DNA from: Candidatus Bathyanammoxibius amoris | Lineage (GTDB): Bacteria > Planctomycetota > Brocadiia > Brocadiales > Bathyanammoxibiaceae | Direction of reading: 5' to 3' | Assembly (NCBI GenBank): GCA_024451685.1 | Contig: JAMXCW010000002.1 | Location: 109,541-173,540, forward strand | Length of the DNA stretch: 64,000 nucleotides | In this document: piece by piece, positions 10,127 to 62,420 of the stretch | Position numbering within the stretch: the stretch's first letter is position 1 | Layout of the letters: every line of letters starts with the position of its first letter | The notes under the pieces: model-generated | Told to the model about the DNA's origin: nothing | The model's database searches: none | The model's input: the letters and a program-made list of their open reading frames with translations, nothing else | Made by a program: the position numbers and the translations under genes

Positions 10127-10165
10127 TGTGTACACCCCTCTCAAAAAGTCTCCTAATACCGCGTT

Positions 10166-47886: not shown

Positions 47887-48100
47887 AAATCCATCATAAT
47901 TCACCACCTGCCAGAAACTCCGTCACATTAAGCAACAAACGGCCGTTATTCGCCTTATTCCAATTGTCATAAAGGCGGCGCCCCGGTGTGCTTGTAGTGC
48001 CGTCGTCAGCCGGTGAACTATCAGACAGGGCCGCAATCCTGCCCCCGCCCAGCCTGGAGGTGGCAAGTATTATGTTGAGTCCCGTCTGCCACGCCCTTCT
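47887..48100 (-). pseudogene. Orphan 3' fragment of a paralog of the 62214-63122 gene (left copy of a 214-bp direct repeat)
   Basis: Nucleotides 47887-48100 match 62207-62420 with only about half a dozen mismatches by eye. The encoded peptide ...LNIILATSRLGGGRIAALSDSSPADDGTTSTPGRRLYDNWNKANNGRLLLNVTEFLAGGE is the C-terminus of the 302-aa protein. Nothing upstream is homologous. Confidence 0.85.
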
Positions 48101-48294
48101 TATGCTAAAATTTAATTTGCCTCGCTCTATCCCAATTTGCATGATTTTAGACCTCTTTTACCCACCTGAAATTTGTTGTCAGTATAATTACGAATCCTAC
48201 ACTAAAATAATTTATGTACACTTATTTTGATTGAGGTTACGTCAGCAATAGCGGTAATCTTGGTCAGAGTACAATTTGTTGGGTCTAAAGGACC

Positions 48295-49590
48295 TTAAGA
48301 AGCTGCCGTTGCGCCCCTTAGGAATTTTAAAGAGAGCCCGACAACACCCGAATCCCCTACAATCTCACGATAGGTCTTGGTGCCTGAGAGGAAGTCTGTC
48401 AATACGTTTAACAGGACCCTGTCTTTAGCCGCGACCCTGAGCGCGCCGGGCATCGTACCGTATTTCTCCCCAAGTATGGTCATCTGCCTTACCGTACGGC
48501 CGTAGGGGAGGTCCTTTACTATGTGTGAAAAGGCTGTATAGTACTCTTTCAGGGCCCGGTGGGATATTCCAACCTTTAACATCACCTCTGCCGCCTTTAT
48601 CCCGGTCTCGCAGGCGGAGTTGATACCGTTGCCTTTGTAGGCCCTGACAAGCCCGGAGGTGTCTCCTACCGTGACATACCTGTCTCCAAAACTGTTTTGC
48701 GCAGGCTCCAGAGGGATGGGCAACGGCCGGGACACCAGCTTCTCATCTTCCCTGACGACATCCGCCGGAACCAGTTCCCTTACCTCCGGCAGGGAGAGGA
48801 ACCGTTCCAGGGACTCTTCAGTCACGGCAGGCCCTGCCACGTTAACGATAAGGTCGGTAAGTTTTGGGGTGACCACACCGAACTCTATGTCATCGAGGGT
48901 GGTAGGCAAGAACACATGTAAATAGTCCTCACATTCCTTTAAATACTCCGGGTCGGCGGGGATCTTGGTCACAACAGAGAACAGCGCCTTGGGAGTCACA
49001 TAGGGTGTGGCCTGTTCCAGAAGGTTGGCTGTCTCTGCGTCCAGCCCAAAGGCGCCTACCAGGACGTCTCCCTTTGTCGCTCCCTTTGCCCCCTTCAGGT
49101 CACTTTCTACTGCAATACCGTCAGGATAGAATTTTATGTCCTTTACCCTCCCCGGGATAACCCTTACACCCAGCTCCTTGGCCTTGCCCAACAGGTAGCG
49201 GTCAATGGCCACGTTGTGTCCCACAAAGGAGAGTCTTCCTCCCAGATTAAGCTTGATCTTGGCATCGCCTGAGTGGAGATAATACCCGGCTACCTTCCTC
49301 TGGATGGCCTCACAGGGAAAGGTTACTCCCAAGACCTCTTCCAGGGTCTCCTTGAGGGGCGGGGACAGAACTCCTACCCTCTTAATACAGTCTTCGTTGA
49401 ACTTCATTCCCTCATATATGATGACGTTTATGTCCCTGCCCAGCTTCTTGCCCATCATCTTCAGGGTGATGGCGCAACTTGAGCCGGCAGGGCCGCCCCC
49501 AATAATGATTGCAGTCTGACCGTCCTCCAGAGGACCCAGGGAGTGACTCACTCTTGCTACGTTTGGATGGTAGTTATCGGAAATGGACAT
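48295..49590 (-). CDS. FAD-dependent oxidoreductase (geranylgeranyl-reductase-like family)
   Basis: AIIIGGGPAGSSCA is a dinucleotide-binding motif near the N-terminus, with GD..G later in the sequence. The start is moved to ATG 49590. Confidence 0.75.
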   Translation of the reverse strand: MSISDNYHPNVARVSHSLGPLEDGQTAIIIGGGPAGSSCAITLKMMGKKLGRDINVIIYEGMKFNEDCIKRVGVLSPPLKETLEEVLGVTFPCEAIQRKVAGYYLHSGDAKIKLNLGGRLSFVGHNVAIDRYLLGKAKELGVRVIPGRVKDIKFYPDGIAVESDLKGAKGATKGDVLVGAFGLDAETANLLEQATPYVTPKALFSVVTKIPADPEYLKECEDYLHVFLPTTLDDIEFGVVTPKLTDLIVNVAGPAVTEESLERFLSLPEVRELVPADVVREDEKLVSRPLPIPLEPAQNSFGDRYVTVGDTSGLVRAYKGNGINSACETGIKAAEVMLKVGISHRALKEYYTAFSHIVKDLPYGRTVRQMTILGEKYGTMPGALRVAAKDRVLLNVLTDFLSGTKTYREIVGDSGVVGLSLKFLRGATAAS

Positions 49591-49839
49591 GTTATTGCGA
49601 TGTCCTTGCTGCAAACTCTCAGGAGGTAGGCTGTTAGCGGAATTAAATCTTAATTGTACAGAGCAAGTCATAAGCCCTGTTAGCAAGTTCGGTCATACGG
49701 GTATCATCATAGGCGCACCGCCGGCCCCTGGATAGAAACTACCACAACGCCAACCAGTAGGACGAAGAGTGTGGCCACATCTGTGGCGGAGAGTATCACA
49801 GCTTTTGTTCTGTTATTTACTAATATCACAGCACGACCC

Positions 49840-50469
49840 TTATTGGACAGGGAAGGTCATGCTTATACCTCCCTTTAGCTCTCCAAGCTTGTAGTTTTCC
49901 ATGTAACTGCCAGTTATGTCTTTCCCGTCACCTGTGGGGCTGTTCGAGGGGTCGCCGTGACACTTTAGGCATTGCTCATTCATGTAGAGGGGGTGGAAGT
50001 AGCGGTAAACTATCTCCTTTGGCCTCTCGTCTACCCTGCTGTATTCTCCAAAACCTGCGTCAGCTCGAAGTCCCTGCCCCTTGAATTTACTGATTTGGAC
50101 CTGCTCCCATTCATCAGCCAGGTTATCCGGGTTTCTGATGCCATACTCGTCTTTCCCTACATCAACGAACTTGATCCTAACTCCTGACCTTTTTGTAAAG
50201 TCCTTGCTAATGGTTATGGCGAAGTTGACGGGGTTAATGCCCTTGTAGCTGTAAGGTTCATCTTCGGGGACAGGCATGCCGAGTTTTGCATTGTGCGTGT
50301 CAATAACATCCATATTCTCGGCTATCAGAACGCTTGAAACGGTCAACATGTTTATAATATGTTTGGCTATTTTGTTGAAGTCATAAACCTGTGCAAAACA
50401 GTCTCCGACAGGAAATATTGTCAGAGTATACATTAACACTACAACTGCGATTTTCTGTAGGGATTTCAT
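49840..50469 (-). CDS. Secreted monoheme c-type protein, DUF3365 (Tll0287-like) family, paralog 1
   Basis: There is a signal peptide and a single CLKCHGDP heme motif in the context YRYFHPLYMNEQCLKCHGDPSNSPTGDGKD.TG. The ATG at 50469 overlaps the upstream stop (ATGA). Confidence 0.7.
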   Translation of the reverse strand: MKSLQKIAVVVLMYTLTIFPVGDCFAQVYDFNKIAKHIINMLTVSSVLIAENMDVIDTHNAKLGMPVPEDEPYSYKGINPVNFAITISKDFTKRSGVRIKFVDVGKDEYGIRNPDNLADEWEQVQISKFKGQGLRADAGFGEYSRVDERPKEIVYRYFHPLYMNEQCLKCHGDPSNSPTGDGKDITGSYMENYKLGELKGGISMTFPVQ

Positions 50470-51140
50470 TTCCGTTCTCCCTCCTCTTCCTTGGCCAGCC
50501 ATGTTTCATCCACAGGGAACGCAAGGCTTATGGCACCACGAAGTTCTCCCAGCTTGTAGTCTTCCATCTCAAAGCCAGTCAAGTCTTTACCGTCCCCAGT
50601 GGGGCTTGCTGCAGGGTCACCATGACATTTTAGGCAACGGTCCTCTATGTACAGGGGGTATATATAGCGGTAGACCATCTTGTTTAGCTCCGCACCGCCC
50701 ACCAGCTCTATCTCTCCGTAGCCTACCCCCTTGGGGTATCTTACCTTAGAAAATTTCTCCAGTTGCTTGTTCTCCCACTTGTCCGGTTTATTGTACATAT
50801 TCCTTGGGCCGCATTTACCCTTTCCATTCGAGACGAATTTTGTCGATATCCCAGTCATCCTGGCAAACTCTATCGCTATCAAGGTGGCAAATCCCTCGGG
50901 ATTAATCCCCTTGTAGCTAGTGAGTTCACCTTCGGGGATTGGTTCTCCAACCTTTGCGTTGTGGGTATTTATCACCTCGAAGTTATCCGCAATAAAGTCT
51001 GTCGTCGCGTTCATCATGTTTACGATGGAGCTTGACACCCTTTCGTAGTCATATACTTGAGCCCTGCCGTCTTCGGCAAAGAAAAGGCTCAGTGCCGTGA
51101 AGGCTAATACGAACTTAATTTTCCTCACTGCATCTTTCAT
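50466..51140 (-). CDS. Secreted monoheme c-type protein, DUF3365 (Tll0287-like) family, paralog 2
   Basis: The signal peptide is MKDAVRKIKFVLAFTALSLFFA. The heme context is YRYIYPLYIEDRCLKCHGDPAASPTGDGKDLTG. A GGAGG RBS precedes ATG 51140. The ORF is colinear with paralog 1. Confidence 0.7.
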   Translation of the reverse strand: MKDAVRKIKFVLAFTALSLFFAEDGRAQVYDYERVSSSIVNMMNATTDFIADNFEVINTHNAKVGEPIPEGELTSYKGINPEGFATLIAIEFARMTGISTKFVSNGKGKCGPRNMYNKPDKWENKQLEKFSKVRYPKGVGYGEIELVGGAELNKMVYRYIYPLYIEDRCLKCHGDPAASPTGDGKDLTGFEMEDYKLGELRGAISLAFPVDETWLAKEEEGERK

Positions 51141-51372
51141 GGCATGTCCTCCGTCTGCCTTAATGAGTATTTTGCTGTGTGGCTTCCAAGACCATCCCAG
51201 CCGCCTTCTCCATGCCCTCTTGTGAATGCTGTTTTGAGCCCCGATTCTCCCGGCATCTTTCTTGCAATGTGGGTCTTGATACACCCCGGTCTTACTACAA
51301 AAAGCATCTTATAAAATACTAACGGACCACAAATAAATCCGTAGACTACTACTGTTCCCGTTTCTGAAAGAA

Positions 51373-51744
51373 CTAATCTGCAGGAATCTCCAGGCTCATA
51401 GGTCCACCTTGGAGACTACCCGAACCCTCCAGCTTGGCATGCGCCTTTACCTCTCCGTTAGTAAGGATCTCTACTCTGGTGTCACGCTCCACCCTGACCT
51501 CCATCACCGTTTCTGACAAATTTACCCCGATGTTCGCAGGCTCCGTAGTTATCTCCATGCCACTCAAACGAATAAAGGGCAAAAACCAGAGCTTCATCTT
51601 AACCTCGGGCAGTTTTATCTTGATCCCGGGGAGGGTGATTGACACCTTTCCACCGGGGTTAATCTTTAGCTCCGTGGGCTGAATGTCTATTGCACTTTTC
51701 ACATCCAATAAAGTAGTAGCGTCAGTTTCGCCCCTAAGTGGCAT
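51373..51744 (-). CDS. Hypothetical 123-aa protein (beta-rich, no signal peptide)
   Basis: A clean ORF with an AAAGGAGG RBS upstream of ATG 51744. I recognise no family. Confidence 0.5.
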   Translation of the reverse strand: MPLRGETDATTLLDVKSAIDIQPTELKINPGGKVSITLPGIKIKLPEVKMKLWFLPFIRLSGMEITTEPANIGVNLSETVMEVRVERDTRVEILTNGEVKAHAKLEGSGSLQGGPMSLEIPAD

Positions 51745-52051
51745 TGGCGGACCTCCTTTAATTTGCCTTACGCAGTTAGAGTAGGACCCTTACAAAAGTC
51801 CCACACAAAAGCTATCAACTCACCTGAACTTCCCACGCCTATACCTCCGCAGAGAAAACAAAAACCCATAAAAACAGGCCTTAAACCAGACGATACCTTT
51901 GAAGCACCCGGCACATACGATAACTGGTAAATACATCTATGTAAGAAAGAGAGAGCCCAACTCATACGGAGAGTATACATCTGGGACATTCTCCATATAA
52001 GGGAGGCCGCGTCGAGAACGGGGGCTCTCTCTTCAGTCGTCGGTCAGTGAT

Positions 52052-53665
52052 CTATTTCTCCTCCAGGGCCTTGAGCCTTCTGAGCCTATTGGCCTCATCC
52101 TGGATACGAGCCAGTGAACCAATCATGTGCGACCAGCCATACCACCAGGAATAATCCTGCTGGGCATGGGCTGTACCCTTATAACCCTTGAGCTTGTACC
52201 AGAACCACATTTCCGCGTACTCCCTCTCTATGGCACTGGGAGTGCCGGGTCTGGTGATGAAGACACTATAGACCCCAAGAATGGGGCCTATTACAGGGAC
52301 ACGCCCCTCCAGATCCTTGAAGGCCTTGTAGACACCCATCCCTAACTTATCCGGGCCCAGGGCATCGGCCAGTACGTCTCCCATAGGGAAGACAGGCCTG
52401 TCTTTAGGAGCAGGGTTAAGCAGGCCCTCAGCAACGACCTGATCAAGTATCAGCTGGGCTTCGTCCTGCTTCTTGAAACACAGGAACATGTACTGATCCA
52501 TGTTTTCCAGCCACAGTCGCGCAAAGCGGCTGCTGTGACACCTGCCGCACATCTCTATCCACAGCTCCCGCTTCTGGAGATTCTCCGGGGAATATACCTC
52601 CAGTTTCGCATCCAAAGGAGGGATATTAATCCCGTAGGGGTAGTCCTTGAGGCTGGACTTATACTCTACCTCCTTCGGGGGTACGGTGCCCATGCGCCAG
52701 ATGCCCTTGCTAATGGGATTAATCGTCCATTTATTACCCCCCATATACATGTGGCAATACTGACAGGTGGGACTCTTATAGTCCTTTCCAGGGATGATGT
52801 CCCCCAGGGGCTTGTCCCAGGGCCAATGTTCACCCTCCAGCTCATAAATAGTGCCCATCTTAGAATGGCTGTAGGTCTCCCAATCGGGATGGTCAGGTCC
52901 CATGTGACAACTCATGCAGGCCTCCGGTCTCCTGCCCTCAGCGGCTGAGAAGCTGTGCCTGGTGTGGCATGTGTCACACCTGGCCATTTCCTCATGACAC
53001 ATGTCACAGCCTATCAGAGAGGCGCCTTCTCCCTGACGATATGACTCTATATACCAGGGCACCACCACGTTGGCCTCCCAGCTCTGGAGATGGCTGGGCC
53101 GACCGTACTTTCTCTCAGAGGCATACTCCTCTGCCTGCTTCAAGTGGCACTCACCACAGGCATTATCCACGGTGGGCATCTGCAGCACATCGTGGCTCTT
53201 GCCGTGGCAACCAGAACAGTCTACCTCTTTTATCTCCCGACCCAGGCGTTTTTCTATCTCCGCGGTCTTTGCGGCGAAATATTCATTCCTCTTGGGCTGG
53301 GCATGGGTGGAGGCCTTCCAGGAGTTGACTATCCCAGGTGTGATATCGGCGTGGCACTCCACACACTGATCGGGTTGAAATTTTTTCATCAACTCTGGAA
53401 ACATCTTGATGTCTGGCCGTACGTAGTGTCTTAAAGGATTCATATACATGTAGAGAGGTATGGGCTTGTAGGCATCGGCAAAGGGACCATCCCCCTTTTC
53501 CAGGTACACTGCCTCTGCGAACATTTTCTGAAGCTCTGGTGTGGGATAGGCCCAGGACTTCTTGGCTACCTTCTCCTCAGGGGCCTTTTCGTCGGCGGCT
53601 CGGGCCTGACCCGGCCCTAGTAAAATAACTGCCGTGGCCAACGCTATGATAAATGGTAATCTCAT
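52052..53665 (-). CDS. Octaheme cytochrome c, hydroxylamine oxidoreductase (HAO)-like
   Basis: The signal peptide is MRLPFIIALATAVILLGPGQARA. There are eight CxxCH motifs: CVECH, CSGCH, CGECH, CDMCH, CDTCH, CMSCH, CQYCH and CGRCH. Their spacing, including the CDMCHEEMARCDTCH doublet, is typical of the HAO family. Confidence 0.88.
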   Translation of the reverse strand: MRLPFIIALATAVILLGPGQARAADEKAPEEKVAKKSWAYPTPELQKMFAEAVYLEKGDGPFADAYKPIPLYMYMNPLRHYVRPDIKMFPELMKKFQPDQCVECHADITPGIVNSWKASTHAQPKRNEYFAAKTAEIEKRLGREIKEVDCSGCHGKSHDVLQMPTVDNACGECHLKQAEEYASERKYGRPSHLQSWEANVVVPWYIESYRQGEGASLIGCDMCHEEMARCDTCHTRHSFSAAEGRRPEACMSCHMGPDHPDWETYSHSKMGTIYELEGEHWPWDKPLGDIIPGKDYKSPTCQYCHMYMGGNKWTINPISKGIWRMGTVPPKEVEYKSSLKDYPYGINIPPLDAKLEVYSPENLQKRELWIEMCGRCHSSRFARLWLENMDQYMFLCFKKQDEAQLILDQVVAEGLLNPAPKDRPVFPMGDVLADALGPDKLGMGVYKAFKDLEGRVPVIGPILGVYSVFITRPGTPSAIEREYAEMWFWYKLKGYKGTAHAQQDYSWWYGWSHMIGSLARIQDEANRLRRLKALEEK

Positions 53666-53772
53666 AAACGCCTCCCTCCTTAACAAAGTTTCTACTACTG
53701 CTTAACCTCCCTGGGTACTGGAGGTCTTGGCCTGAAGGTTTCGTAGTCTCTTGTAACACTCTCGCTTGGGTT

Positions 53773-55290
53773 TTAAGGAATAGCTTCTCCTTCCTGCTGT
53801 GGGGACTTTTCATCCAGGGGCATGGCCTCCTGCCCCACAGCCTCCTGGGCTGGGGGGAAGGCCTCTCCTTCAACGATTACCAGTTTAGTTTCCCGGATGA
53901 TCTCGTCTTCCGAGAAAGAAGTAGCTTCTCCTTCCTGCTGTGGGGACTTTTCATCCAGGGGCATGGCCTCCTGTCCCGCAGCCTCCTGGGCCGGGGGTGG
54001 GGCCTCTCCTTCAACGATTACCAGTTTAGTTTCCCGGATAATCTCGTCTTCCGAGAAAGAAGTAGCTTCTCCTTCCTGCTGTGGGGACTTTTCATCCAGG
54101 GGCACGGCCTCCTGTCCCACCGCCTCCTGGACCGGGGAGAAGGCCTCTCCTTCAACGATTACCAATTTAGTTTCCCGGATGATCTCATCTTCCGAGAGCG
54201 GGGATGTCCCGGCAGACCCCCCAAATACAGGCACCTGCACGCTAACAGGTATTACCTCTTCCTGAGAGGTTTCTTTCTGCGGTAAGGCCTGTGTCACCGG
54301 GCCTTCGGATTGAATCTTGGCGAGGGGTTCAGCCCTCAGCTCGTGGTGTCTGGCCATATGGCATTTACCGCAGACGTCATAGCTAAAACCTAGTTTGCTG
54401 AGCCTACCAGCCTCGTCCACCTTTCCCTGACTCATAAAATAGACGTAAAGCTGTCCGGGCCCGTGACAGGCCTCACAGGTGACACCTTCCTCTACATATT
54501 CGCCGGTCTCTTCATCGTACCCGGTGGTATGGCACTCGTAGCACTTCTTTCTGTACTCCTCATCACCTTGTATAAAGTCTTTTGCTTTTTTGACCCGTTC
54601 CATGGTGACAAACTTGTTGTCCTTCCAGCGGTCGATGTGCCAGGTGGTGAGGCCCTTGTGACACCTGACGCAGGCAGTGCTGCCCACGTAGACCGCCTTC
54701 TCGCCGGTTATGCTGTAATACTTGTAATCTGAGGCTTCCTGGCCCTCCTTGGGGGAAAGTTCGGCCAATCCCTTCCACAACTCCAGCACGGCATCAGCGG
54801 TGTCTATCCTGCCAATCATTTCTTTCCTGCTGGCATATAAGTGCTCATGGGCCCCCTCCAGTCGGAGGGATTCGCCCTGGCCACCGTGGCAGACCGTACA
54901 GCCGTAAATGTCGTAAGGTAAATAATCAAACGTCTTGGGGTGCAGTTCTTCTAATTTGTCCACATCTACATGACAGGTCATACACCTGTCCACCTTCTCT
55001 CCGTTTTCCCCATCCTTCCAACGTCCGCTGCCTTTAAGGAGTAACTGTTTTACCCCCACGGGGGGGTTTTTTAGGGCCGCAATCCTCTGTTTCAGCTTTT
55101 CTGCCATGACAGGATCCCCCCATTTAGGGTCGGACCACCTCTCCAGCTCGTGCTCTAGCCTGTCCACCTGTTCGGCATAAGCGACCTTCTGATAGCCCAC
55201 CCACTCGGGGTAGACTTCCCTGACAACCCAGAGGACAAGCAGGCCCAGCAAGACCACTGATAAGACAACAAAAGGTATCCTCCACAACAT
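53773..55290 (-). CDS. Membrane-anchored hexaheme cytochrome c with repetitive acidic C-terminal extension
   Basis: There is an N-terminal TM helix and six CxxCH motifs (CMTCH, CTVCH, CVRCH, CYECH, CEACH, CGKCH). The C-terminal roughly 140 aa are three 47-aa repeats. Confidence 0.85.
   Translation of the reverse strand: MLWRIPFVVLSVVLLGLLVLWVVREVYPEWVGYQKVAYAEQVDRLEHELERWSDPKWGDPVMAEKLKQRIAALKNPPVGVKQLLLKGSGRWKDGENGEKVDRCMTCHVDVDKLEELHPKTFDYLPYDIYGCTVCHGGQGESLRLEGAHEHLYASRKEMIGRIDTADAVLELWKGLAELSPKEGQEASDYKYYSITGEKAVYVGSTACVRCHKGLTTWHIDRWKDNKFVTMERVKKAKDFIQGDEEYRKKCYECHTTGYDEETGEYVEEGVTCEACHGPGQLYVYFMSQGKVDEAGRLSKLGFSYDVCGKCHMARHHELRAEPLAKIQSEGPVTQALPQKETSQEEVIPVSVQVPVFGGSAGTSPLSEDEIIRETKLVIVEGEAFSPVQEAVGQEAVPLDEKSPQQEGEATSFSEDEIIRETKLVIVEGEAPPPAQEAAGQEAMPLDEKSPQQEGEATSFSEDEIIRETKLVIVEGEAFPPAQEAVGQEAMPLDEKSPQQEGEAIP
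53776..54195 (-). repeat. In-frame tandem repeat, 3 x 141 bp (47 aa), inside the hexaheme cytochrome gene
   Basis: The unit is SEDEIIRETKLVIVEGEA(F/P)(S/P)P(V/A)QEA(V/A)GQEA(V/M)PLDEKSPQQEGEATSF. The unit boundaries are 54195/54054/53913/53776. The DNA copies are nearly identical. Confidence 0.9.
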
Positions 55291-55301
55291 TCCACTCTAC
55301 C

Positions 55302-56078
55302 TCATATGTTAAACCAGGGGGTTACCAGTACGTATTTGACATTAAAGACGACCCTCAATAATATCTTTATGGGCACAAATAGCATGGCGGCAAATAGATT
55401 CATTGTAATGAAGTATCGTATAAGACCCAGTTTGAAGAAAAACTTAGGGAAGAGGATGGCCGGGAGTATAAGCATCAGAGCACCGTAACATACCAAAAAG
55501 GCTATGCCCGCAGGAAGGGGGAAACTGCCCAGCGCCTGCTCCATGGGTTTGATAACATCCCAGCTTTCCCCCGGCCAATAAAAGTTCCAGAATGGGCCCC
55601 GGAAATACTGACCCACTATCACCAAGACAAACCACATAGTAAAGCCCCCAATGAAACAGGCCGAGGCAAACTTTCTCGTCCTCACGTTATAGCGGCCCAC
55701 CCCCTTTATGGGGTCAGGGTCGATGTAGGGTATGAGAGCCAGGCCAACAAGGATGACAGTAGGCAGTACCACTCCTGCCATCCAGGGGTCAAAATACACC
55801 AGCAGTTCCTGCAGGCCCACGAAATACCAGGGTGCCTTGGCCAACTTGGGGGTCTCATTAGGATTGGCCAGCTCCTCCAGAGGGGCATTTTGTAGCAGGC
55901 TCCAGGCCACGACCACTATGGAGGCCGCCAGCACGGCTATGAGTTCCCTCTTTACCAGGTGGGGCCAGGTGTCTACCTTTTCTTCTTTCGGATAGACATC
56001 ACGCTGCCTGAGCAGGAGGTCCTCTCTTACCACGGTGATGAGTCTAATCTTTTCTTTGTTTTCTGTTTTCTCTACCAT
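55302..56078 (-). CDS. Cytochrome b C-terminal half (subunit IV / PetD-like) with extra C-terminal TM helices
   Basis: The Qo-loop region ETPKLAKAPWYFVGLQELL aligns to the PEWYF region of subunit IV. There are about six or seven predicted TM helices. Confidence 0.85.
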   Translation of the reverse strand: MVEKTENKEKIRLITVVREDLLLRQRDVYPKEEKVDTWPHLVKRELIAVLAASIVVVAWSLLQNAPLEELANPNETPKLAKAPWYFVGLQELLVYFDPWMAGVVLPTVILVGLALIPYIDPDPIKGVGRYNVRTRKFASACFIGGFTMWFVLVIVGQYFRGPFWNFYWPGESWDVIKPMEQALGSFPLPAGIAFLVCYGALMLILPAILFPKFFFKLGLIRYFITMNLFAAMLFVPIKILLRVVFNVKYVLVTPWFNI

Positions 56079-56090
56079 TTGTCTAATACA

Positions 56091-56825
56091 CTATAAAGGC
56101 CTGGAAATGCCTCCGGACTTTCTGATTCTCCAGAAGTGAACGGCCATTAATCCCACTGCGACCCCTGGCAGGCCCACACAGTGGGCAAAGTAAAAGCGAA
56201 TCAGGGTGGGCTGATCTATTGCGGTGCCGCCCAATATAATAAAATGGATATCCTGTTCAGGGCCAAGGATGCTAAAAGGGCCTTTAGCGCCCAAGACGGG
56301 GGTGTTTTCCCCCATTGTAGCTCCTACTGTCACTGCCCAGAAAGACAACTGGTCCCAGGGCAGTAAATAGCCCGAAAAACTAAGCAATAAGGTTATCACA
56401 AGCAGGCCCACCCCGATGACCCAGTTAAACTCTCTAGGTGGTTTATAAGAGCTGGTCAAAAATACCCTTAGCATGTGCAGAGGCACAATGAGGACCATCA
56501 GGTGAGCTGCCCAGCGGTGGAGGTTCCTCTGAAAGGAGCCGAAGGGTACTATATAGTCTATGTCCTTCATGCTGGAATAGGCCTTATCCACATGGGGCAC
56601 ATAATAAAGCATCAGAAACGCGCCGGTTATGGCCGTGACTATAAAGAAGAAGAGAGCGAACCCACCCAGGCAGAAGGTGTAAGTAAACTTTATGCCGTCC
56701 TTGCTCACCCGGGCTGGTTGGATATGAAGGACAAAATTCGATATCACACGGAAGACCCGGTGGAGGTGACTATCAGAAGTCCCGGTCCTGAATACAGACC
56801 TCCACATCTGGGTGAATATATTCAT
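56091..56825 (-). CDS. Cytochrome b6-type N-terminal half (PetB-like)
   Basis: The heme ligand pairs are HRWAAHLMVLIVPLH (H-x13-H) and HCVGLPGVAVGLMAVH (H-x14-H). The FCLGG motif corresponds to the heme ci Cys of b6. Confidence 0.9.
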   Translation of the reverse strand: MNIFTQMWRSVFRTGTSDSHLHRVFRVISNFVLHIQPARVSKDGIKFTYTFCLGGFALFFFIVTAITGAFLMLYYVPHVDKAYSSMKDIDYIVPFGSFQRNLHRWAAHLMVLIVPLHMLRVFLTSSYKPPREFNWVIGVGLLVITLLLSFSGYLLPWDQLSFWAVTVGATMGENTPVLGAKGPFSILGPEQDIHFIILGGTAIDQPTLIRFYFAHCVGLPGVAVGLMAVHFWRIRKSGGISRPL

Positions 56826-56848
56826 CTCTCTCCTCTTAAAAAGAATCG

Positions 56849-57370
56849 CTAGGCACGCAGGAAGTAGTCTATATTCACTTTCTTGCCCTCATCAACCTCC
56901 AACCGTCCATCTTTGGCCACGGTAATCTCCAGGCGCTCCAAGGGTTTGGGGGCCGGGCCAGCAAAGTTTACCCCGTTCTTGTAAAAACGGCTGCCATGGC
57001 AGGGGCATTTGAAGATCTGCTGGCCTTCATACCATACCGGCTGGCAACCTAGATGGGTACATATGGCCAGGAGGGCATAAAAGCCCTTATCTCCCCGTAT
57101 TATCCAGACCTTTCGGCCGGTCACCAGGTTCACCGAGCCCTTTGCGTACTGCTCAGGCCTCTTGGCCTTAAAAATCTTAGAGGGCTCGTAAGTGGCCCTG
57201 GGGTAGAGGAACCGTACCAGCGTTGCCCCTGTAACACTGAGTATGACAAGAAGTAGCCCCCAGCCACTCCACCAGAGCGCAGTCCACATAGCCTGTCGTC
57301 TGGCGGGCTTCTTAACCCCCGTGGGTATAGCTTCCTCTGCATTTGTCTTAGACTTAACCATCACATACAA
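56849..57370 (-). CDS. Rieske [2Fe-2S] protein
   Basis: The cluster motifs CTHLGC and CPCHGS are present. The N-terminal RR-containing TM anchor is KKPARRQAMWTALWWSGWGLLLVIL. Confidence 0.9.
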   Translation of the reverse strand: MYVMVKSKTNAEEAIPTGVKKPARRQAMWTALWWSGWGLLLVILSVTGATLVRFLYPRATYEPSKIFKAKRPEQYAKGSVNLVTGRKVWIIRGDKGFYALLAICTHLGCQPVWYEGQQIFKCPCHGSRFYKNGVNFAGPAPKPLERLEITVAKDGRLEVDEGKKVNIDYFLRA

Positions 57371-57375
57371 CCTCT

Positions 57376-59316
57376 CTACAAGATTTCCTCAAATTTCACC
57401 ATTGAGATGGCATCAACGGGACAGCGATAGCTACACAGTCCGCAGTGGATGCAAAGCTCCTCATCCTGTGTCAGCCCTACCCAGGGCCCATCACCTCCCG
57501 CACCATCCCATAGGGAAAACTCCTTCACCACTGACCCATCCAGATAGGCCATAGCGAGAGCCCTGGTGGGGCAGACGTCCACACAACCTCCGCAGAGGAT
57601 ACACTGCATCTCCTGCCTTTGCCCTATTACCGGGCTGACATTGCAGTTCAAGCACCGCCCGGCCTGGTCCTGGGCCTCGTACTCTGAGTAAGGTATCTCT
57701 GAGGCCTCCCATCCCTTGAGCCTTTCTTCGGGAGGCCGCAGGGTAGGATACTGCTTTGTCAGGGAGAGTCCGTAGTAGAACCTCTCAAATCTCCAGGTAA
57801 TGGGTATTGCCTCCATGTGCTCCTGTTTGCTCAGCCCCAGGGAGCCAACGCCTCCCAGATATTCATGCATGGACTGGGCGGCCAGCTGACCCGAAGCTAC
57901 TGCATTTATTACCAGACCCGGGCCCAGGATGTCGCCGCAGGCATAGACTCCGGGCTTGGAGGTGGCCAGGGTAACGGGGTCTACCTTTAGCATCTTCCTC
58001 TGGTTTAGCTCAAAACCCTGACTGCCGTCCAGGAAACTCATATCAGGGGCCTGACCCACAGCCAGGAGGATGTTGTCGCATTCTATGATGCGTTCTGTAC
58101 CCGGGACAAAGGTTGGGTTAAACCGGCCCTCTGAGTCATAAACATCGATTACATTTATCACCTCCAGACCCGCGACCCGGCCATCCTGACCCACCACCAC
58201 CCTCTTGGGGCCCCAGGAGGTGTTCATGATGATTCCTTCCTCACTAGCATCCACAACGTCGCCTATCCAGGCAGGCATCTCCTCCTTGAGGTTATCAGGT
58301 CTACAGCCCTTCATGGCCTCCAGGCATACAAGGTGCACCTCGCTGGTGGAGTCAATTCTCATTGCCGCCCTGGCTACATCGGTAGCCACGCATCCCCCTC
58401 CTATTACTACTACCTTCTCACCCAGAGTAAACTTTCGGTCAGTTGCTATGTCCCCTACGTCCATCAGGAAGTCCAACCCTGATAAAACCCCTGGCGTCTC
58501 CACTCCCGGGACGGGTACACCCCTCCCCTTCTGGAGACCCACCGCGATAAGAACTGCGCCAAACTCCTCCTTGAGCTGGTCAAGGCTGAAGTCCTTTCCG
58601 CAGGCCTGATTAAGTTTCAGCTTTATGGGCAAAGAGAGTATGGACTCCACGTCCTTCCTCACTGCCTCTCTATCCAATCTGAAGAAGGGTAGCGCATTGG
58701 CAGGCATACCACCAGGATTACTGCCGGCCTCATAGAGCGTTACCTCGTAACCCATGAGTATCAGGTCATGGGCGGCCGAAAGGCCGGCGGGCCCCGCACC
58801 AATTATCGCCATCCGAGCCGGGACGAGCTTGGGAGACTCCCTCTTCACCACTGCAGGCTTCACCTTTCCCATCTTCTGCCTTATCCAACGATAAACCTCC
58901 CCAGTACTCAGGTGGTTGTTTTTTACGGCAAAATCCTTCAGGCCCCTTATGCTTACCGCCTCGTCCACCTTGCCCCTCTGGCAGGCCGACTCACAGGGCG
59001 CACCACAGACCTTAGCGCAGACGGCAACAAAGGGATTATTCCTCCTGGCAATCAGATAGGCCTCCTGGTACCTACCTTCATCAATGGCCATCACGTAGCC
59101 CCTTGCATTGGTGCCAGACGGACAGGTGCGGCGACAGGGCACATTCTCACGAAACCATTCCTTGTCCACAGAAGTGGCTACCGGTGTGTCAGTCAGCACA
59201 GATTGCCGTGCGGCCTCCAGATGCCTGGCCCTCATCTGGGAGAGCTCATCTAGAGATATTGAGAAGTCGCGCTCCTTGAAGCTTATTGTTATAGAATTAG
59301 CAGACTCTCCGCTCAT
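57376..59316 (-). CDS. NAD(P)H-dependent FAD oxidoreductase (glutamate synthase small subunit GltD/NfnB-like) fused to a C-terminal 2x[4Fe-4S] ferredoxin domain
   Basis: The N-terminal FeS region is CPSGTNARGY...CAKVCGAPCESAC. The FAD motif is IIGAGPAGLSAAHDL and the NAD(P) motif is VVVIGGGCVATDVA. The C-terminal clusters are CLNCN...CILCGGCVDVCP and CIHCGLCSYRCP. There is no signal peptide or TM helix. Confidence 0.88.
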   Translation of the reverse strand: MSGESANSITISFKERDFSISLDELSQMRARHLEAARQSVLTDTPVATSVDKEWFRENVPCRRTCPSGTNARGYVMAIDEGRYQEAYLIARRNNPFVAVCAKVCGAPCESACQRGKVDEAVSIRGLKDFAVKNNHLSTGEVYRWIRQKMGKVKPAVVKRESPKLVPARMAIIGAGPAGLSAAHDLILMGYEVTLYEAGSNPGGMPANALPFFRLDREAVRKDVESILSLPIKLKLNQACGKDFSLDQLKEEFGAVLIAVGLQKGRGVPVPGVETPGVLSGLDFLMDVGDIATDRKFTLGEKVVVIGGGCVATDVARAAMRIDSTSEVHLVCLEAMKGCRPDNLKEEMPAWIGDVVDASEEGIIMNTSWGPKRVVVGQDGRVAGLEVINVIDVYDSEGRFNPTFVPGTERIIECDNILLAVGQAPDMSFLDGSQGFELNQRKMLKVDPVTLATSKPGVYACGDILGPGLVINAVASGQLAAQSMHEYLGGVGSLGLSKQEHMEAIPITWRFERFYYGLSLTKQYPTLRPPEERLKGWEASEIPYSEYEAQDQAGRCLNCNVSPVIGQRQEMQCILCGGCVDVCPTRALAMAYLDGSVVKEFSLWDGAGGDGPWVGLTQDEELCIHCGLCSYRCPVDAISMVKFEEIL

Positions 59317-60057: not shown

Positions 60058-60062
60058 ATCGC

Positions 60063-60159
60063 TACCATACCGCAGGCAATGCCGAACTGCTGAAGGTAGC
60101 TTCGCCTACTAGCCCTCATTATCACTCCTGCCATTTTAAGGTGAGGTTCTTGTTATGAT
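60063..60159 (-). repeat. Leader repeat unit, copy 2 (distal part only; proximal part replaced by the IS3 remnant)
   Basis: ctaccataccgcaggcaatgccgaactgctgaaggtagcttcgcctactagccctcattatcactcctgccattttaaggtgaggttcttgttatgatc aligns with 59424-59522. Confidence 0.85.
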
Positions 60160-60417
60160 CTTGAAATTAGTGTTACAGAGTTAGCACAGGCCCTTTGTCT
60201 ATATCTTCCTTGTTAGAAAATGAGACTGTTACCATTTCACTATCTTTGAGAAGGTTAGAACATGTTAGTTTAAAGTTAGAATACGTTACTTTGTGGGAGG
60301 GGGTAGGCGTAGACGTTGAAAAACCACGGGTTACTGCCATACCACAGGCAATACCAGACCATCGAAGGTAGCTTCGCCTACTAGCCCTCATTATCATTCC
60401 TGCCATTTTAAGGTGTT
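60160..60417 (-). repeat. Leader/5'-CDS repeat unit, copy 3 (degenerate; start codon mutated to ATA)
   Basis: On the minus strand, GATATAGACAAAGGGCCTGTGCTAACTCTGTAACACTAATTTCAAG aligns with GATATGAGCGGAGAGTCTGCTAATTCTATAACAATAAGCTTCAAG of the real gene start. The rest aligns with copy 1, apart from an insertion of about 20 nt. Confidence 0.85.
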
Positions 60418-61170
60418 TTTGTCGTGATATACCGTAAAACAGCCTAGTTTTACGACAATCAGCGGCAGTTATACACCATTTGTCGTAACAACCAACATGT
60501 GATATGTCGGTGAGATTTTATCGCAACTATACCACACAAAAAGGTGTTTGCAAGAACTTTTTAAGAAAATTTTAGGGAGGGGAAACTTGCTTACCAACTT
60601 AAAGAGGATCGTAATAGTAGCCCTCTTTGTTATCAATTTATGTTCGAATAACTTATTCTAATCAAACAGTAACATAGTACGATGCAGGATAACAACCCAA
60701 TGCGTACGGCAATCAGGCACTGCTAAGACTTTGAATTGGCCATTAATCGGGCTTTGCCGATATAAGCCGTGTCAATGGCAAACCTCAAACCTGCGCTCGT
60801 ACAAAATTCTGTCAGCAGTTTTATCCATAAGTTCATTCCCACATGTCAGACACTCTCTGCTGGACATACAAATCTTGTATATGTAATTGAAAGCTTGCGA
60901 GATTAAATATGGGGCCACAAAAACATGTAGTTGAAATAAAACGGGAATCTAAGATTACTATATTTTTCTCCTACCCGGCTTTTTTTTGACAAACACTTTT
61001 TTGTGGTAAACTTCTGACCAGTTTGATAACCTCTTGCTTATGGCCTTTAAGAGATAGGCGCATAGATGGGCAATGGAAGGCCTGATGGTGTGCCGCCAAT
61101 CCTTGGCACACTTATTTTTGTGTTCTCTGCACTGAGCTTCTTAACTCACCGGCAGGTGTGAGGTGCGACG

Positions 61171-62205
61171 ATGCAGGACCGGACAGGGCCTGGTAGATAT
61201 TTGACCCTTTTCACAATAACGGCAATTATCCTGTTTTGCCTTCAGGATGCCCAGGCACAGGATGCACAGAAGTCTTTCAACACCGGAAAAGCCCTACTCA
61301 AGCAGCGAAGGTATGAGGATGCACTTATCCACTTTAACAAGACGCTGGAGATTGAACCAGGGTTTGCCACAGCATGGAACGAAAAAGGCACGGTCTTTCT
61401 CAAATTGGGCAGGTACTGGGAGGCGATTGAATGCTTTGACAAGGCACTGAAGATTAACCTAAGCTACGCCGAGGCATGGCATAACAAGGGCAAGGGCTTT
61501 GACAACTTGGGCAGGTATCAGAGGGGCATTAAATGCTACAATAAGGCATTGAAGATTAACCCACGCTACGCCGAGGCATGGTACAGCAAGGGAGCGTCCC
61601 TGTTCGCGCTGGGCTACAAGAACGGCGCAACCCAGTACGCGGCACGCTTGTATCAGGAGGCCTTTGAATGTAGCGACAAGGCGCTGGAGATGGACCCAAA
61701 GCTTGCCGAGGGATGGCTCAACAGGGGCTTTGCCGGCGTCGAACTAGGCAGCTATAAAGAAGGCATTGGAGGCGACAACAAGGCACTTAAGACTGATCCA
61801 AGGTACGCCGAGGCATGGTACGGCCAGTGCATGGAGCTGGGTAGCCAGGGCAGTTATCAGGATGCCATTGACTACTACGACAAGGCACTGGAGATAAACC
61901 CAAAGGACGCTGGAGCATGGTATAAAAAGGGCGTGGCACTAGGTAACCTGCGCAGGTATCAAGAAGCTATTGAATGCTATGACAAAATACTGGAGATTGA
62001 CCCAAAGAATACATACGCGTGGAGCAATAAGGGCTGGGTCCTGGCCAGGATGGGCAGACCGCCTGAAAAAGAATTTGCCTGCTACGAAAAAGCATTAGAG
62101 ATAGACCCAAAGCATGTCCCTGCGTGGAGCACAAACGGCGCACCCCTGTCAGAACTGCCTCGATATATAGAGGTAGAAAAGGCCGCCATGGGTGTGAAGA
62201 GATAG
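61171..62205 (+). CDS. Secreted TPR-repeat protein
   Basis: A signal-like N-terminus is followed by about eight or nine canonical 34-aa TPR units (YxEAIECYDKALEINPKxAxAW repeated). Confidence 0.8.
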   Translation: MQDRTGPGRYLTLFTITAIILFCLQDAQAQDAQKSFNTGKALLKQRRYEDALIHFNKTLEIEPGFATAWNEKGTVFLKLGRYWEAIECFDKALKINLSYAEAWHNKGKGFDNLGRYQRGIKCYNKALKINPRYAEAWYSKGASLFALGYKNGATQYAARLYQEAFECSDKALEMDPKLAEGWLNRGFAGVELGSYKEGIGGDNKALKTDPRYAEAWYGQCMELGSQGSYQDAIDYYDKALEINPKDAGAWYKKGVALGNLRRYQEAIECYDKILEIDPKNTYAWSNKGWVLARMGRPPEKEFACYEKALEIDPKHVPAWSTNGAPLSELPRYIEVEKAAMGVKR

Positions 62206-62206
62206 A

Positions 62207-62420
62207 GAATCCATCAGAATTCACCACCTGCCAGAAACTCCGTCACATTAAGCAACAAACGGCCGTTATTCGCCTTATTCCAATTGTCATAAAGGCGGCG
62301 CCCCGGTGTGCTTGTGGTGCCGTCGTCAGCCGGTGAACTGTCGGACAGGGCCGCAATCCTGCCCCCGCCCAGCCTGGAGGTGGCAAGTATTATGTTGAGT
62401 TCCGTCTGCCGCGCCCCTTT
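62207..62420 (-). repeat. Right copy of the 214-bp direct repeat (3' end of the intact 62214-63122 gene)
   Basis: See 47887-48100. The two copies have the same orientation and lie 14.3 kb apart. Confidence 0.85.

What the first reader, a model, noticed from the sequence alone, without database searches (positions are those of the whole stretch)
47887..62420. A 14.3-kb respiratory segment is bracketed by 214-bp near-identical direct repeats (gene-3'-end duplication)
Nucleotides 47887-48100 and 62207-62420 are in the same orientation and differ at only about six positions by eye. The right copy is the 3' end of an intact 302-aa gene. The left copy is an orphan fragment with an unrelated upstream sequence.

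The segment between them holds:
- the R/b-HAO operon
- the DUF3365/FAD module
- the IS3 remnant
- the triplicated leader
- an ORF-free AT-rich tract
- a TPR gene

A repeat this long is not a transposition target duplication. It is what Campbell-type integration of a circular DNA carrying a short homologous patch would leave, or what a segmental duplication junction would leave.

This suggests the whole respiratory module is a recently acquired, duplicated or excisable island. That would fit the existence of paralogous R/b clusters in anammox-type genomes.
Basis: partly seen in the sequence, partly recalled or inferred. Interest (0 to 1): 0.6.

Follow-up and report, generated by a model that had tools for sequence, protein, structure and literature searches.

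The report
Relocated respiratory gene cluster with duplicated target
In this anammox bacterium a 14-kb block of respiratory genes sits between two genes that are direct neighbours in every relative examined, and about 210 bases of the target gene's end were duplicated on either side when it went in; this is an ordinary kind of genome rearrangement, but it moved a core energy-metabolism operon.

Summary
The repeat is real: window 47884-48102 and 62204-62422, direct, 219 nt, 9 differences. The right copy is the 3' end of an intact 302-aa gene. The left copy is an orphan joined to that gene's native downstream DNA.

The window is from Candidatus Bathyanammoxibius amoris. In ten loci from at least six other Bathyanammoxibiaceae/Hypogeohydataceae populations the 302-aa orthologue is followed directly by the methyltransferase. 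The 14.1 kb between the copies is therefore an insertion.

It has no integrase or transposase ends. At the right junction the inserted DNA ends at the TPR stop codon plus 8 nt (AGAGAATC) that overlap the target (AGAAAATC). The duplicated patch is the host's own sequence: other genera are only 74-82% identical there.

In the sister genome Bin_158 the same cluster appears, from accession order, to abut a FAD gene rather than the 302-aa gene. I read this as a recent relocation by illegitimate, microhomology-assisted insertion with a ~205-211-bp target duplication.

Caveats:
- The FAD gene inside the segment has two copies in this genome.
- The independent assembly does not span 48480-~49418.
- Composition does not prove foreign origin.

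Campbell integration is neither proven nor favoured, and there is no sign of a paralogous second cluster.

The parts
47884..48102 (-). Left (orphan) copy of the 3' end of the 302-aa gene, contiguous on its left with the gene's native downstream spacer and the methyltransferase. The secure duplicated core is 47892-48096.
   Evidence: Annotated in the source genome as an 82-aa hypothetical protein, MCQ4574039.
62204..62422 (-). Right copy: the functional 3' end of the 302-aa gene. Its first 8 nt (62204-62211, AGAGAATC) come from the inserted DNA and form the junction microhomology.
62214..63122 (-). Intact 302-aa target gene. NCBI names it 'DUF2194 domain-containing' or hydrolase; Pfam matches (ABC_transp_aux, DUF4350) are weak and below threshold.
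47037..47747 (-). Class I SAM-dependent methyltransferase. In all relatives examined it is the immediate downstream neighbour of the 302-aa orthologue.
48103..48257 (.). S1: a 155-nt AT-rich stretch at the left end of the insert. It has no homologue in the window or in any fetched locus.
48258..49670 (-). FAD-dependent oxidoreductase unit: the gene (48295-49590 by the NCBI start), about 80 nt of promoter region and about 37 nt of 3' flank. It has a type I N-terminus. Orthologues in two other genomes lie next to MetRS. A second, partial copy with a type II N-terminus sits at the end of another B. amoris contig.
49840..51284 (-). Two DUF3365/Tll0287-like genes with CxxCH motifs.
51373..51989 (-). 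Two small ORFs (123 aa and 73 aa). They are collinear with L022.
52052..53686 (-). HAO-like octahaem cytochrome c.
53773..55290 (-). Multihaem cytochrome c with three 47-aa C-terminal repeats.
55302..59316 (-). Rieske/cytochrome b core: NAD(P) oxidoreductase (57376-59316), Rieske protein (56849-57370), cytochrome b6-like protein (56091-56825) and a subunit-IV-like protein (55302-56078). This is the Kuste4569-4574 type.
   Evidence: PMC12954380.
59397..60415 (-). Upstream region holding three copies of a roughly 110-nt element and the IS3-orfA-like HTH gene (59706-60029). The same layout is conserved in L010.
61171..62205 (+). TPR gene, the right end of the insert. Its C-terminus is intact and its TAG stop straddles the junction (T|AG).

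Best explanation
A 14.1-kb block carrying the R/b-3-type respiratory cluster was inserted into the chromosome of Ca. Bathyanammoxibius amoris. The block runs TPR, HTH gene, NAD(P) oxidoreductase, Rieske, cytochrome b, multihaem cytochrome, HAO-like cytochrome, two DUF3365 genes, FAD oxidoreductase. It went in 2-10 nt downstream of the stop codon of a 302-aa gene, which separated that gene from its ancestral neighbour, a methyltransferase.

The insertion was not made by an integrase or a transposase. It was an illegitimate, microhomology-assisted joining in which the two chromosomal ends overlapped by about 205-211 bp. Possible routes are a staggered break, unequal sister-strand joining, or a replication template switch that returned about 210 nt behind its point of departure. 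As a result the last 69 codons of the gene are present on both sides: one copy keeps the gene intact and the other stays with the native downstream DNA.

The block most likely came from elsewhere in the same genome or from a conspecific strain. In the sister genome Bin_158 the cluster appears to lie next to a FAD gene at what is the MetRS locus in other genera. Two near-identical FAD paralogues could release the cluster as a circle.

Shown: the repeat, the empty ancestral site, the 8-nt junction overlap, and the host origin of the patch.
Inferred: the source locus, any circular intermediate, and how the 210-bp overlap arose.
For: 1. Ancestral empty site. In L003, L004, L005 and L023 (Ca. Avalokitesvara rifleensis) the order is flavin reductase(-), 298-aa orthologue, methyltransferase, small ORF, Fer4, Mo-pterin oxidoreductase, SmpB. 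This matches the window's flanks without the 14 kb. The gene pair is also adjacent in L006, L007-L009 (Hypogeohydataceae YC41), L014, L015 and L016.

2. Right junction. After the TPR stop, L010 reads TAGAGAATC|TTTTT. The window's right copy reads TAGAGAATC|CATCAGAATTC. The native target (left copy) reads CAGAAAATC|CATCATAATTC. There is thus an 8-nt overlap with 7 of 8 matches, and the right copy carries the insert's variant. The TPR C-terminus is complete.

3. The patch is host sequence. The two copies are about 97% identical over the 205-nt core, against 82%, 78%, 77% and 75% for orthologues in other genera.

4. No mobility genes. The ORF-free tract has no Pfam match in any frame. The only transposase-like ORF is a 107-aa IS3 orfA homologue, conserved at the same place in L010 and Bin_158, with dN/dS 0.42 like its neighbours.

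5. The block is a pre-existing cluster. L010 is collinear with window 54741-62211 at 79-86% DNA identity, and L022 with 49484-52057 at 83%.

6. Sister genome. On a 15,366-bp Bin_158 contig the accessions run FAD (type II N-terminus) MCB7128103, X 8104, orfA 8105, NAD(P) oxidoreductase 8106, Rieske 8107, cytochrome b (partial) 8108. The Bin_158 302-aa gene (MCB7129507/8) and methyltransferase (MCB7129620) lie on other short contigs.

7. B. amoris has a second FAD copy, MCQ4575372: 141 aa at the end of a contig, with a type II N-terminus, and about 97% identical to the island copy after residue 22.

8. Each cluster protein is found on only one B. amoris contig.
Against: - The source sequence of the left end (S1, 48103-48257) is unknown, so the left junction cannot be checked for microhomology.
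- The Bin_158 gene order is inferred from consecutive accession numbers and a shared contig length, not from its DNA. X was not identified, because the TPR protein is not in the searchable collection.
- Bin_158's 302-aa and methyltransferase contigs both seem to end at the edges of the patch (my estimate from CDS lengths). The same duplication, or a mixture of strains, could therefore exist there too.
- The independent assembly breaks inside the two-copy FAD gene, so linkage of the two repeat copies across 14.3 kb is not independently confirmed.
- I know of no well-documented bacterial precedent for a roughly 210-bp target duplication made in one step without a recombinase.
- The stable differences between the copies cluster near the edges. 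Gene conversion between older, more diverged copies would give the same pattern.
Confidence: 0.52

Rival explanations
1. Campbell-type integration. A circular form of the cluster that already carried a roughly 210-bp copy of the 302-aa gene's 3' end recombined with the chromosomal gene by RecA-dependent homologous recombination. This left the patch on both sides.
For: - The geometry fits exactly: direct repeats, one attached to the gene body and one to the native downstream DNA.
- Two of the orphan copy's amino-acid variants (Gly at codon 13 of the tail, Leu as last residue) occur as alleles of the intact gene in other Bathyanammoxibius strains (P0278, P0279), as expected if the patch came from another strain.
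- Recombination between repeats is active in this genome. The FAD paralogues are homogenised, and the central patch sites differ between assemblies.
- Recombination between the two patch copies would regenerate such a circle, so the model could explain spread between strains.
Against: - It does not explain how the patch first became joined to the cluster. The patch is host-type, so the circle must derive from an earlier integrated state that already had both junctions.
- The TPR|patch junction shows a microhomology typical of an illegitimate join.
- No replication, partition or recombinase genes are present.
- No protein like the 82-aa fragment is annotated at MCB7128104 in Bin_158.
Confidence: 0.15
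2. There is no 14-kb island. The two patch copies are the breakpoints of a larger rearrangement, for example an inversion between the 302-aa|methyltransferase site and the FAD-II|TPR spacer of a Bin_158-like ancestor. On this reading the window's contig threads wrongly through the two near-identical FAD genes.
For: - FAD is a two-copy repeat in this MAG. One contig ends 40 codons after the last site that distinguishes the copies.
- The ENA scaffolds stop at 48479 and at about 49419, inside FAD.
- A single inversion of a Bin_158-like arrangement would create both observed junctions: 302-aa gene|TPR, and FAD-S1|patch-methyltransferase (reasoned).
- The 37 nt after the FAD stop match the MetRS-locus type of flank.
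Against: - SPAdes normally threads a repeat only with read-pair support, and the exact-identity stretches between distinguishing sites are about 350-400 nt, which read pairs could bridge (inference).
- In Bin_158 the type II N-terminus is linked to the 'b' C-terminal variant, so by parsimony the type I N-terminus goes with the 'a' variant seen next to S1.
- L022 shows DUF3365 followed by a type I FAD as a genuine adjacency in another lineage.
Confidence: 0.12
3. A degraded site-specific integrative element that targets the 3' end of a protein gene and carries its own replacement copy of that end. Phage 21 and e14 at icd in E. coli work this way (from my own knowledge). The integrase would since have been lost.
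For: Long, slightly diverged direct repeats made of a gene's 3' end, with the gene kept intact, are the hallmark of such elements.
Against: - No integrase gene or pseudogene is present.
- The block's content is a conserved chromosomal operon, collinear with relatives.
- The patch is about 97% identical to the host gene although other genera differ by 18-25%.
- The right edge of the insert coincides with a TPR stop codon plus microhomology, not with an att core.
Confidence: 0.03
4. Assembly artefact or strain mixture. One copy of the patch, or one junction, does not exist in any single genome. For example, a population with an empty site plus a free or differently placed cluster could have been collapsed into one path.
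For: - This is a metagenome-assembled genome.
- The central 183 nt of the patch cannot be phased by short reads.
- The two assemblies disagree at three central sites.
Against: - All four junction sequences (methyltransferase spacer|patch, patch|S1, TPR|patch, patch|gene body) are recovered by two different assemblies, each with kilobases of flank.
- A free 14-kb circle without replication functions would not persist, and it would still need a host-derived patch.
Confidence: 0.05

Closest known systems
Illegitimate (microhomology-mediated) integration of DNA in bacteria: homology-facilitated illegitimate recombination and double illegitimate recombination described for Acinetobacter baylyi and Streptococcus pneumoniae, and replication-based template switching (FoSTeS/MMBIR). 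Cited mostly from my own knowledge; SPDIR is summarised in bioRxiv 10.1101/2023.11.22.568220.
   Same: No recombinase is involved. One junction shows a short imperfect microhomology (8 nt, 7 of 8). A contiguous piece of DNA from elsewhere was inserted. Template-switch models predict a duplication of the flank when synthesis returns behind its point of departure.
   Different: The insert here is 14 kb and the flank duplication about 210 bp. The documented bacterial cases are mostly short patches, or integrations that delete recipient DNA. Nothing here shows which pathway acted, and only one of the two junctions could be examined.
Campbell-type integration and excision through homologous repeats, as in plasmid or episome integration and the looping-out of segments between direct repeats.
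   Same: Direct repeats of about 205 nt at about 97% identity bracket the block and could support RecA-mediated excision that restores the ancestral gene pair. The two FAD paralogues offer a second pair of such repeats.
   Different: No circular form has been observed. The patch is host sequence, so this mechanism cannot account for the first joining of patch and cluster.
Integrative elements that replace the 3' end of their target gene: phage 21 and e14 at icd, and tRNA- or tmRNA-targeting islands (from my own knowledge).
   Same: The gene stays intact, and a displaced orphan 3' end lies on the far side of the insert.
   Different: There is no integrase and no att core. The cargo is a conserved chromosomal operon. 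The duplicated end is host-type rather than element-type. The nearby tRNA-Leu (46463-46549) and tmRNA (41140-41469) were not used as targets.
Kuste4569-4574 Rieske/cytochrome b complex of Kuenenia stuttgartiensis (R/b-3; PMC12954380).
   Same: The same set of components: NAD(P) oxidoreductase, Rieske protein, b6-like cytochrome b, subunit-IV-like protein, multihaem cytochrome c and an HAO-like octahaem protein.
   Different: This concerns the cargo, not the repeat. The gene order differs slightly, and this cluster carries additional DUF3365, FAD, TPR and HTH genes. Function was not tested here.

Membership tests
Transposon or IS insertion with target-site duplication | A transposase gene and terminal inverted repeats at the ends of the insert | tested here: not met
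   No inverted repeats at the ends. The only transposase-like ORF is an internal 107-aa IS3 orfA homologue conserved in relatives.
Transposon or IS insertion with target-site duplication | A short target duplication of fixed length (2-14 bp) | tested here: not met
   The duplication is about 205-211 bp.
Site-specific integrative element (genomic island or prophage) at a gene's 3' end | A tyrosine or serine recombinase gene near one end | tested here: not met
   Pfam and NCBIfam scans of all ORFs, and of stop-to-stop fragments of the ORF-free tract, found none.
Site-specific integrative element (genomic island or prophage) at a gene's 3' end | The repeat next to the gene body is element-derived, and so diverged from the host's displaced end at the donor-host level | tested here: not met
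   The copies are about 97% identical, and orthologous patches from other genera are 74-82% identical. Later gene conversion could mask this.
Site-specific integrative element (genomic island or prophage) at a gene's 3' end | The same element occurs at the same target in other genomes | tested here: not met
   All ten loci from other populations have an empty site.
Campbell-type integration by homologous recombination | A circular donor molecule that carries the homologous patch | not testable with these tools
   This needs reads or long reads showing an S1-patch-TPR junction.
Campbell-type integration by homologous recombination | Direct repeats of the homologous patch flank the insert, and each repeat is a hybrid of donor and recipient | tested here: inconclusive
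   The geometry is met. Hybrid structure cannot be read from 6 differences, 3 of which are unstable between assemblies.
Microhomology-mediated illegitimate insertion | Short imperfect homology between the insert end and the target at the junction | tested here: met
   Right junction: AGAGAATC (insert, as in L010) against AGAAAATC (target). The left junction is untestable because the donor sequence of S1 is unknown.
Microhomology-mediated illegitimate insertion | The site is empty in the ancestral or sister state | tested here: met
Horizontally acquired genomic island (foreign composition) | An oligonucleotide or codon signature distinct from the host's and not explained by gene content | tested here: inconclusive
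   By raw tetranucleotide frequencies the island correlates with the flanks at r = 0.61-0.70, against 0.81-0.90 among flank segments. TETRA z-scores give 0.72 against 0.75-0.84. The orthologous cluster in CSMAG_3136 is equally atypical of its own genome (0.53). GC3 is 0.61 against 0.65 +/- 0.04.
Segmental duplication (paralogous R/b cluster) | A second copy of the cluster in the same genome | tested here: not met
   Every cluster protein was seen on one B. amoris contig only; only FAD has a second (partial) copy. The rest of the genome could not be read directly.

The most novel reading that the evidence does not exclude
The R/b-3/HAO respiratory cluster of Bathyanammoxibius behaves as a recombinase-free mobile cassette. 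Near-identical FAD paralogues, and now the 205-nt patch repeats, let it loop out as a circle and re-enter the chromosome at other places or in other strains. A core catabolic operon would then change position, and possibly host, within a species.
Probability: 0.15. Interest if true: 0.6.

Novelty: new member of a known kind. Interest (0 to 1): 0.35.

Why it matters
The cargo is the Kuste4569-4574-type Rieske/cytochrome b complex with its HAO-like partner. [quoted passage not shown] Bathyanammoxibiaceae lack NirS and NirK (PMC9723696), which makes this cluster a prime suspect for that missing step.

If two genomes with 98.8% AAI carry the cluster at different loci, then core anammox modules are rearranged on short timescales. 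That matters for synteny-based annotation, for MAG binning and for inferences about horizontal transfer.

In practice, the 205-nt repeats and the two-copy FAD gene are assembly hazards in this published reference MAG. They also predict a precise, PCR-testable deletion or circle product.

The rearrangement itself, an insertion with flanking duplication, is a known kind of event.

Tried and rejected
1. Composition as proof of foreign origin. Raw tetranucleotide correlations looked decisive: all island segments were closer to GCA_046758865.1 than to the host. The signal largely vanished with TETRA z-scores and with the control that the orthologous cluster in CSMAG_3136 is just as atypical of its own genome. 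GC3 differs by only about one standard deviation. I do not use it as evidence.

2. Integrase or transposase pseudogenes in the ORF-free AT-rich tract 60416-61170. No Pfam matches were found, and part of the tract is conserved in L010.

3. The 'IS3 remnant' as a footprint of the insertion. Rejected, because it is conserved in L010 and Bin_158 with dN/dS 0.42.

4. The roughly 110-nt 'leader' repeats as IS ends or a structured RNA. There is no Rfam hit and no covariation. They are unrelated to the 109-nt inverted repeats at 10165/14156.

5. Origin of S1 (48103-48257). No match in the window or in 23 loci.

6. Identifying Bin_158 protein MCB7128104 as the TPR. Neither the 344-aa nor the 334-aa version of the TPR protein is in the collection.

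7. Conspecific contigs in JGI metagenomes and GTDB genomes. Only another Avalokitesvara population (L023) and two more distant clusters (L010, L011) were returned; the source genome itself was not.

8. Promoter and terminator scans around both copies gave nothing beyond shuffled expectation.

9. Polarising the differences between the copies with orthologues. Only R to W in the orphan copy is clearly derived. The others fall at sites that vary among strains.

Full report
**Observation**

The window holds a direct repeat at 47884-48102 and 62204-62422: 219 nt, 96% identity, 14,320 nt apart. Ninety-four consecutive bases are identical in the two copies, and no shuffle of the window produced any match.

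The right copy consists of the last 69 codons, the stop codon and 10 downstream bases of an intact 302-aa ORF (62214-63122, minus strand). The left copy is embedded in an 82-aa ORF whose first 13 codons are unrelated.

There are nine differences between the copies, but they are not all of one kind:
- 47887/62207 lies in eight bases that belong to the inserted DNA (see Junctions below).
- 48097 and 48099 lie in a fuzzy edge.
- The three central sites read AAA (left) and GGG (right) in the window, but AAG in both copies in an independent assembly of the same sample.

The secure duplicated core is therefore 47892-48096 (205 nt). Its only stable differences are 47897, 48081 and 48091.

**Source of the window and independent support**

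Exact protein look-ups identify the window as part of a 230,592-bp contig of Candidatus Bathyanammoxibius amoris. The locus tags are NOU37_, and proteins MCQ4574036-4574053 run across the region. According to PMC10060263 this MAG comes from Arctic Mid-Ocean Ridge sediment and was re-assembled with SPAdes.

A second assembly of the same sample (ENA ERZ23499028) contains both copies with their flanks, at 99.9-100% identity:
- Scaffold_11498 runs from the tmRNA gene through the methyltransferase, the left copy and S1, and 185 nt into the FAD gene.
- Scaffold_727 runs from about 170 nt inside the FAD gene's 5' end through the whole cluster, the right copy and the 302-aa gene, and on for another 33 kb.

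Neither scaffold covers 48480-~49418.

**The ancestral state**

In Ca. Avalokitesvara rifleensis (two MAGs, a Logan contig and a JGI contig) the gene order is: phosphate transporter genes, HGD-D genes, BcrAD, flavin reductase (minus strand), 298-aa orthologue, methyltransferase, small ORF, Fer4 protein, molybdopterin oxidoreductase, SmpB. These are the window's two flanks joined together.

The orthologue is also followed directly by a methyltransferase in GCA_051388875.1 (L006), in Hypogeohydataceae YC41 (L007-L009) and in three further Brocadiales MAGs or contigs (L014-L016). In L006 and L007 the two genes overlap or are 4 nt apart, which suggests an operon. The 14.1 kb at 48103-62203 is therefore an insertion specific to this lineage.

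**What was inserted**

The block carries, in order on the minus strand except where noted:
- a TPR gene (divergent, on the plus strand)
- a long upstream region with three copies of a roughly 110-nt element and a 107-aa IS3-orfA-like HTH gene
- an NAD(P) oxidoreductase
- a Rieske protein
- a b6-like cytochrome b
- a subunit-IV-like protein
- a multihaem cytochrome c
- an HAO-like octahaem protein
- two small ORFs
- two DUF3365/Tll0287-like CxxCH proteins
- a FAD-dependent oxidoreductase

The core matches the component list of the Kuste4569-4574 complex of Kuenenia (PMC12954380).

The block is not a patchwork made at the time of insertion. L010 (MAG CSMAG_3136) is collinear with window 54741-62211 at 79-86% DNA identity, including the HTH gene and three copies of the 110-nt element. 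L022 (GCA_044343095.1) is collinear with 49484-52057 at 83%, from the HAO end into the FAD 5' end.

Other relatives, however, have pieces of it elsewhere:
- FAD orthologues of CSMAG_3136 and GCA_046758865.1 lie after MetRS.
- A DUF3365 pair lies between sucC-like and sucD-like genes in GCA_046758865.1.

**Junctions**

At the right junction, L010 gives the expected sequence of the insert's end. After the TPR stop it reads TAGAGAATC followed by TTTTT. The window's right copy reads TAGAGAATC followed by CATCAGAATTC. The left copy, which is continuous with the native downstream spacer, reads CAGAAAATC followed by CATCATAATTC.

Insert and target therefore overlap by eight bases with one mismatch, and the right copy carries the insert's variant. 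The TPR protein ends exactly as its L010 homologue does, so the insert's edge is the TPR stop codon plus this overlap, 2 nt from the 302-aa gene's stop.

The left junction (48096-48105) cannot be analysed in the same way. The 155-nt S1 has no known homologue. Homology of the FAD unit to the MetRS-locus FAD genes ends about 37 nt after the stop codon.

**Whose sequence is the patch?**

Orthologous patches from other genera are 82%, 78%, 77% and 75% identical to the window's, whereas the two copies are about 97% identical to each other. The orphan copy was therefore copied from this species' own gene. It did not arrive with a distant donor, unless gene conversion has since homogenised the copies.

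Exchange between repeats does occur in this genome. The central patch sites are unstable between assemblies, and the two FAD paralogues are about 97% identical after residue 22 even though their N-termini belong to two old types.

**The sister genome and the source locus**

Cluster look-ups return consecutive accessions on a single 15,366-bp contig of 'Bathyanammoxibius sp.' (J3T61_ tags). This genome is Bin_158 by my inference from PMC9723696 and PMC10060263; it shares 98.8% AAI with B. amoris. The order is:
- FAD with a type II N-terminus, MCB7128103
- an unidentified protein X, 8104
- the HTH gene, 8105
- the NAD(P) oxidoreductase, 8106
- Rieske, 8107
- a contig-end fragment of cytochrome b, 8108

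There the TPR side of the cluster seems to abut a FAD gene rather than the 302-aa gene. In other genera, FAD with that N-terminal type lies at the MetRS locus.

B. amoris itself has a second FAD gene with the type II N-terminus, at the end of a 36.7-kb contig (MCQ4575372). That contig stops 40 codons after the last site distinguishing the two copies, which is the mark of an assembler running into an exact repeat.

The cluster proteins themselves were each seen on one B. amoris contig only. The simplest reading is that the cluster moved from a position next to FAD-II to its present site in the B. amoris lineage, rather than being duplicated. Two near-identical FAD genes in direct orientation around the cluster could release a circle of exactly the insert's size. 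That step is inference.

**Mechanism**

A transposase or an integrase is excluded as far as sequence can show. There are no such genes or pseudogenes, no terminal inverted repeats and no shared target in other genomes.

The one junction that can be read shows microhomology. The duplicated flank is host sequence. I therefore favour an illegitimate insertion in which the chromosomal ends overlapped by about 205-211 bp (confidence 0.52).

Campbell integration of a circle that already carried the patch remains possible (0.15). It cannot explain how patch and cluster first became joined. It could, however, describe later spread or excision.

**The main caveat**

FAD is a two-copy repeat, and the independent assembly breaks inside it. 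The two patch copies might therefore be the breakpoints of an inversion of a Bin_158-like arrangement, with the window's contig a mis-thread through FAD (0.12).

Three points argue against this:
- L022 shows that DUF3365 followed by a type I FAD is a genuine adjacency.
- SPAdes threads repeats only with read-pair support, and the identical stretches between distinguishing sites are about 350-400 nt.
- In Bin_158 the type II N-terminus is linked to the 'b' C-terminal variant, which leaves type I linked to the 'a' variant seen next to S1.

**Composition**

Raw tetranucleotide frequencies separate every island segment from every flank segment. Island to host gives r = 0.61-0.70, against 0.81-0.90 among flank segments. 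Island to GCA_046758865.1 housekeeping DNA gives 0.81-0.85.

With TETRA z-scores the island is only marginally atypical (0.72 against 0.75-0.84) and is not closer to the relatives. The orthologous cluster of CSMAG_3136 is equally atypical of its own genome (0.53). GC3 is 0.61 against 0.65 +/- 0.04. I do not treat composition as evidence for foreign origin.

**Verdict**

The specific Campbell mechanism and the link to paralogous clusters are not supported.

The event is a known kind of rearrangement. Its interest lies in the cargo, a core anammox respiratory operon, and in the apparent positional polymorphism between two nearly identical genomes.

Noticed in passing
window 53775-54197: Three tandem 141-nt units (93-94% identical) encode 47-aa repeats at the C-terminus of the multihaem cytochrome (53773-55290). 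The independent assembly has mismatches and an N-gap here. A 458-aa variant, exactly one unit shorter, exists in ENA (P0304). Copy number therefore seems variable or mis-assembled.
   Followed up: partly
window 59397-59506, 60034-60143, 60306-60415; L010 4537-4634, 4774-4879, 5416-5546: A roughly 95-110-nt element occurs three times upstream of the R/b operon and of the HTH gene, and three times at the equivalent place in another species. It has no Rfam match and no covariation support for a structure. Its function is unknown.
   Followed up: partly
window 59706-60029 (-): The IS3-orfA-like HTH gene is not a fresh IS remnant. It is intact and syntenic in L010 (72-74% aa identity) and in Bin_158 (identical 100-aa protein). 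Its dN/dS of 0.42 is similar to the neighbouring respiratory genes. It may be a domesticated regulator.
   Followed up: partly
window 48295-49590 and another B. amoris contig (MCQ4575372): B. amoris has two FAD-oxidoreductase paralogues with different old N-terminal types: MSISDNYHPNVARVSHS and MVISGSGHPNVPKGSGS. They are about 97% identical after residue 22, which suggests gene conversion. This near-identical repeat of about 1 kb breaks assemblies.
   Followed up: partly
window 49816-51310; L020 9161-10654: The DUF3365/Tll0287-like gene pair is 80.5% identical in DNA to a pair that lies between sucC-like and sucD-like genes in GCA_046758865.1. The pair thus occupies different genomic contexts in related genomes.
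   Followed up: partly
window 10165-10273 and 14156-14264: Inverted repeats of 109 nt (94% complementary), rich in internal hairpins, bracket 3.9 kb of housekeeping genes (pseudouridine synthase, a TPR protein, a PHP-domain protein). They are unrelated to the 110-nt element. They could be REP/MITE-like copies or the ends of an invertible segment.
   Followed up: partly
window 46463-46549 and 41140-41469: A tRNA-Leu(CAG) gene and a tmRNA gene, both classic island integration targets, lie 1.3 kb and 6.4 kb from the insertion but were not used. The tRNA-Leu(CAG) is 77% identical to the tRNA-Leu(CAA) at 9034-9120, which accounts for repeat family D4.
   Followed up: no
L019 8343-9653 and L010 395-2503: In MAG CSMAG_3136 the MetRS-locus FAD gene is followed by a dCache-HAMP-PAS sensor. 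The TPR gene of the R/b cluster is followed by a DUF3365 gene, a response regulator and a PEMT-like methyltransferase. The two contigs may be neighbours, which would place the cluster near the FAD/MetRS locus in that genome too.
   Followed up: no
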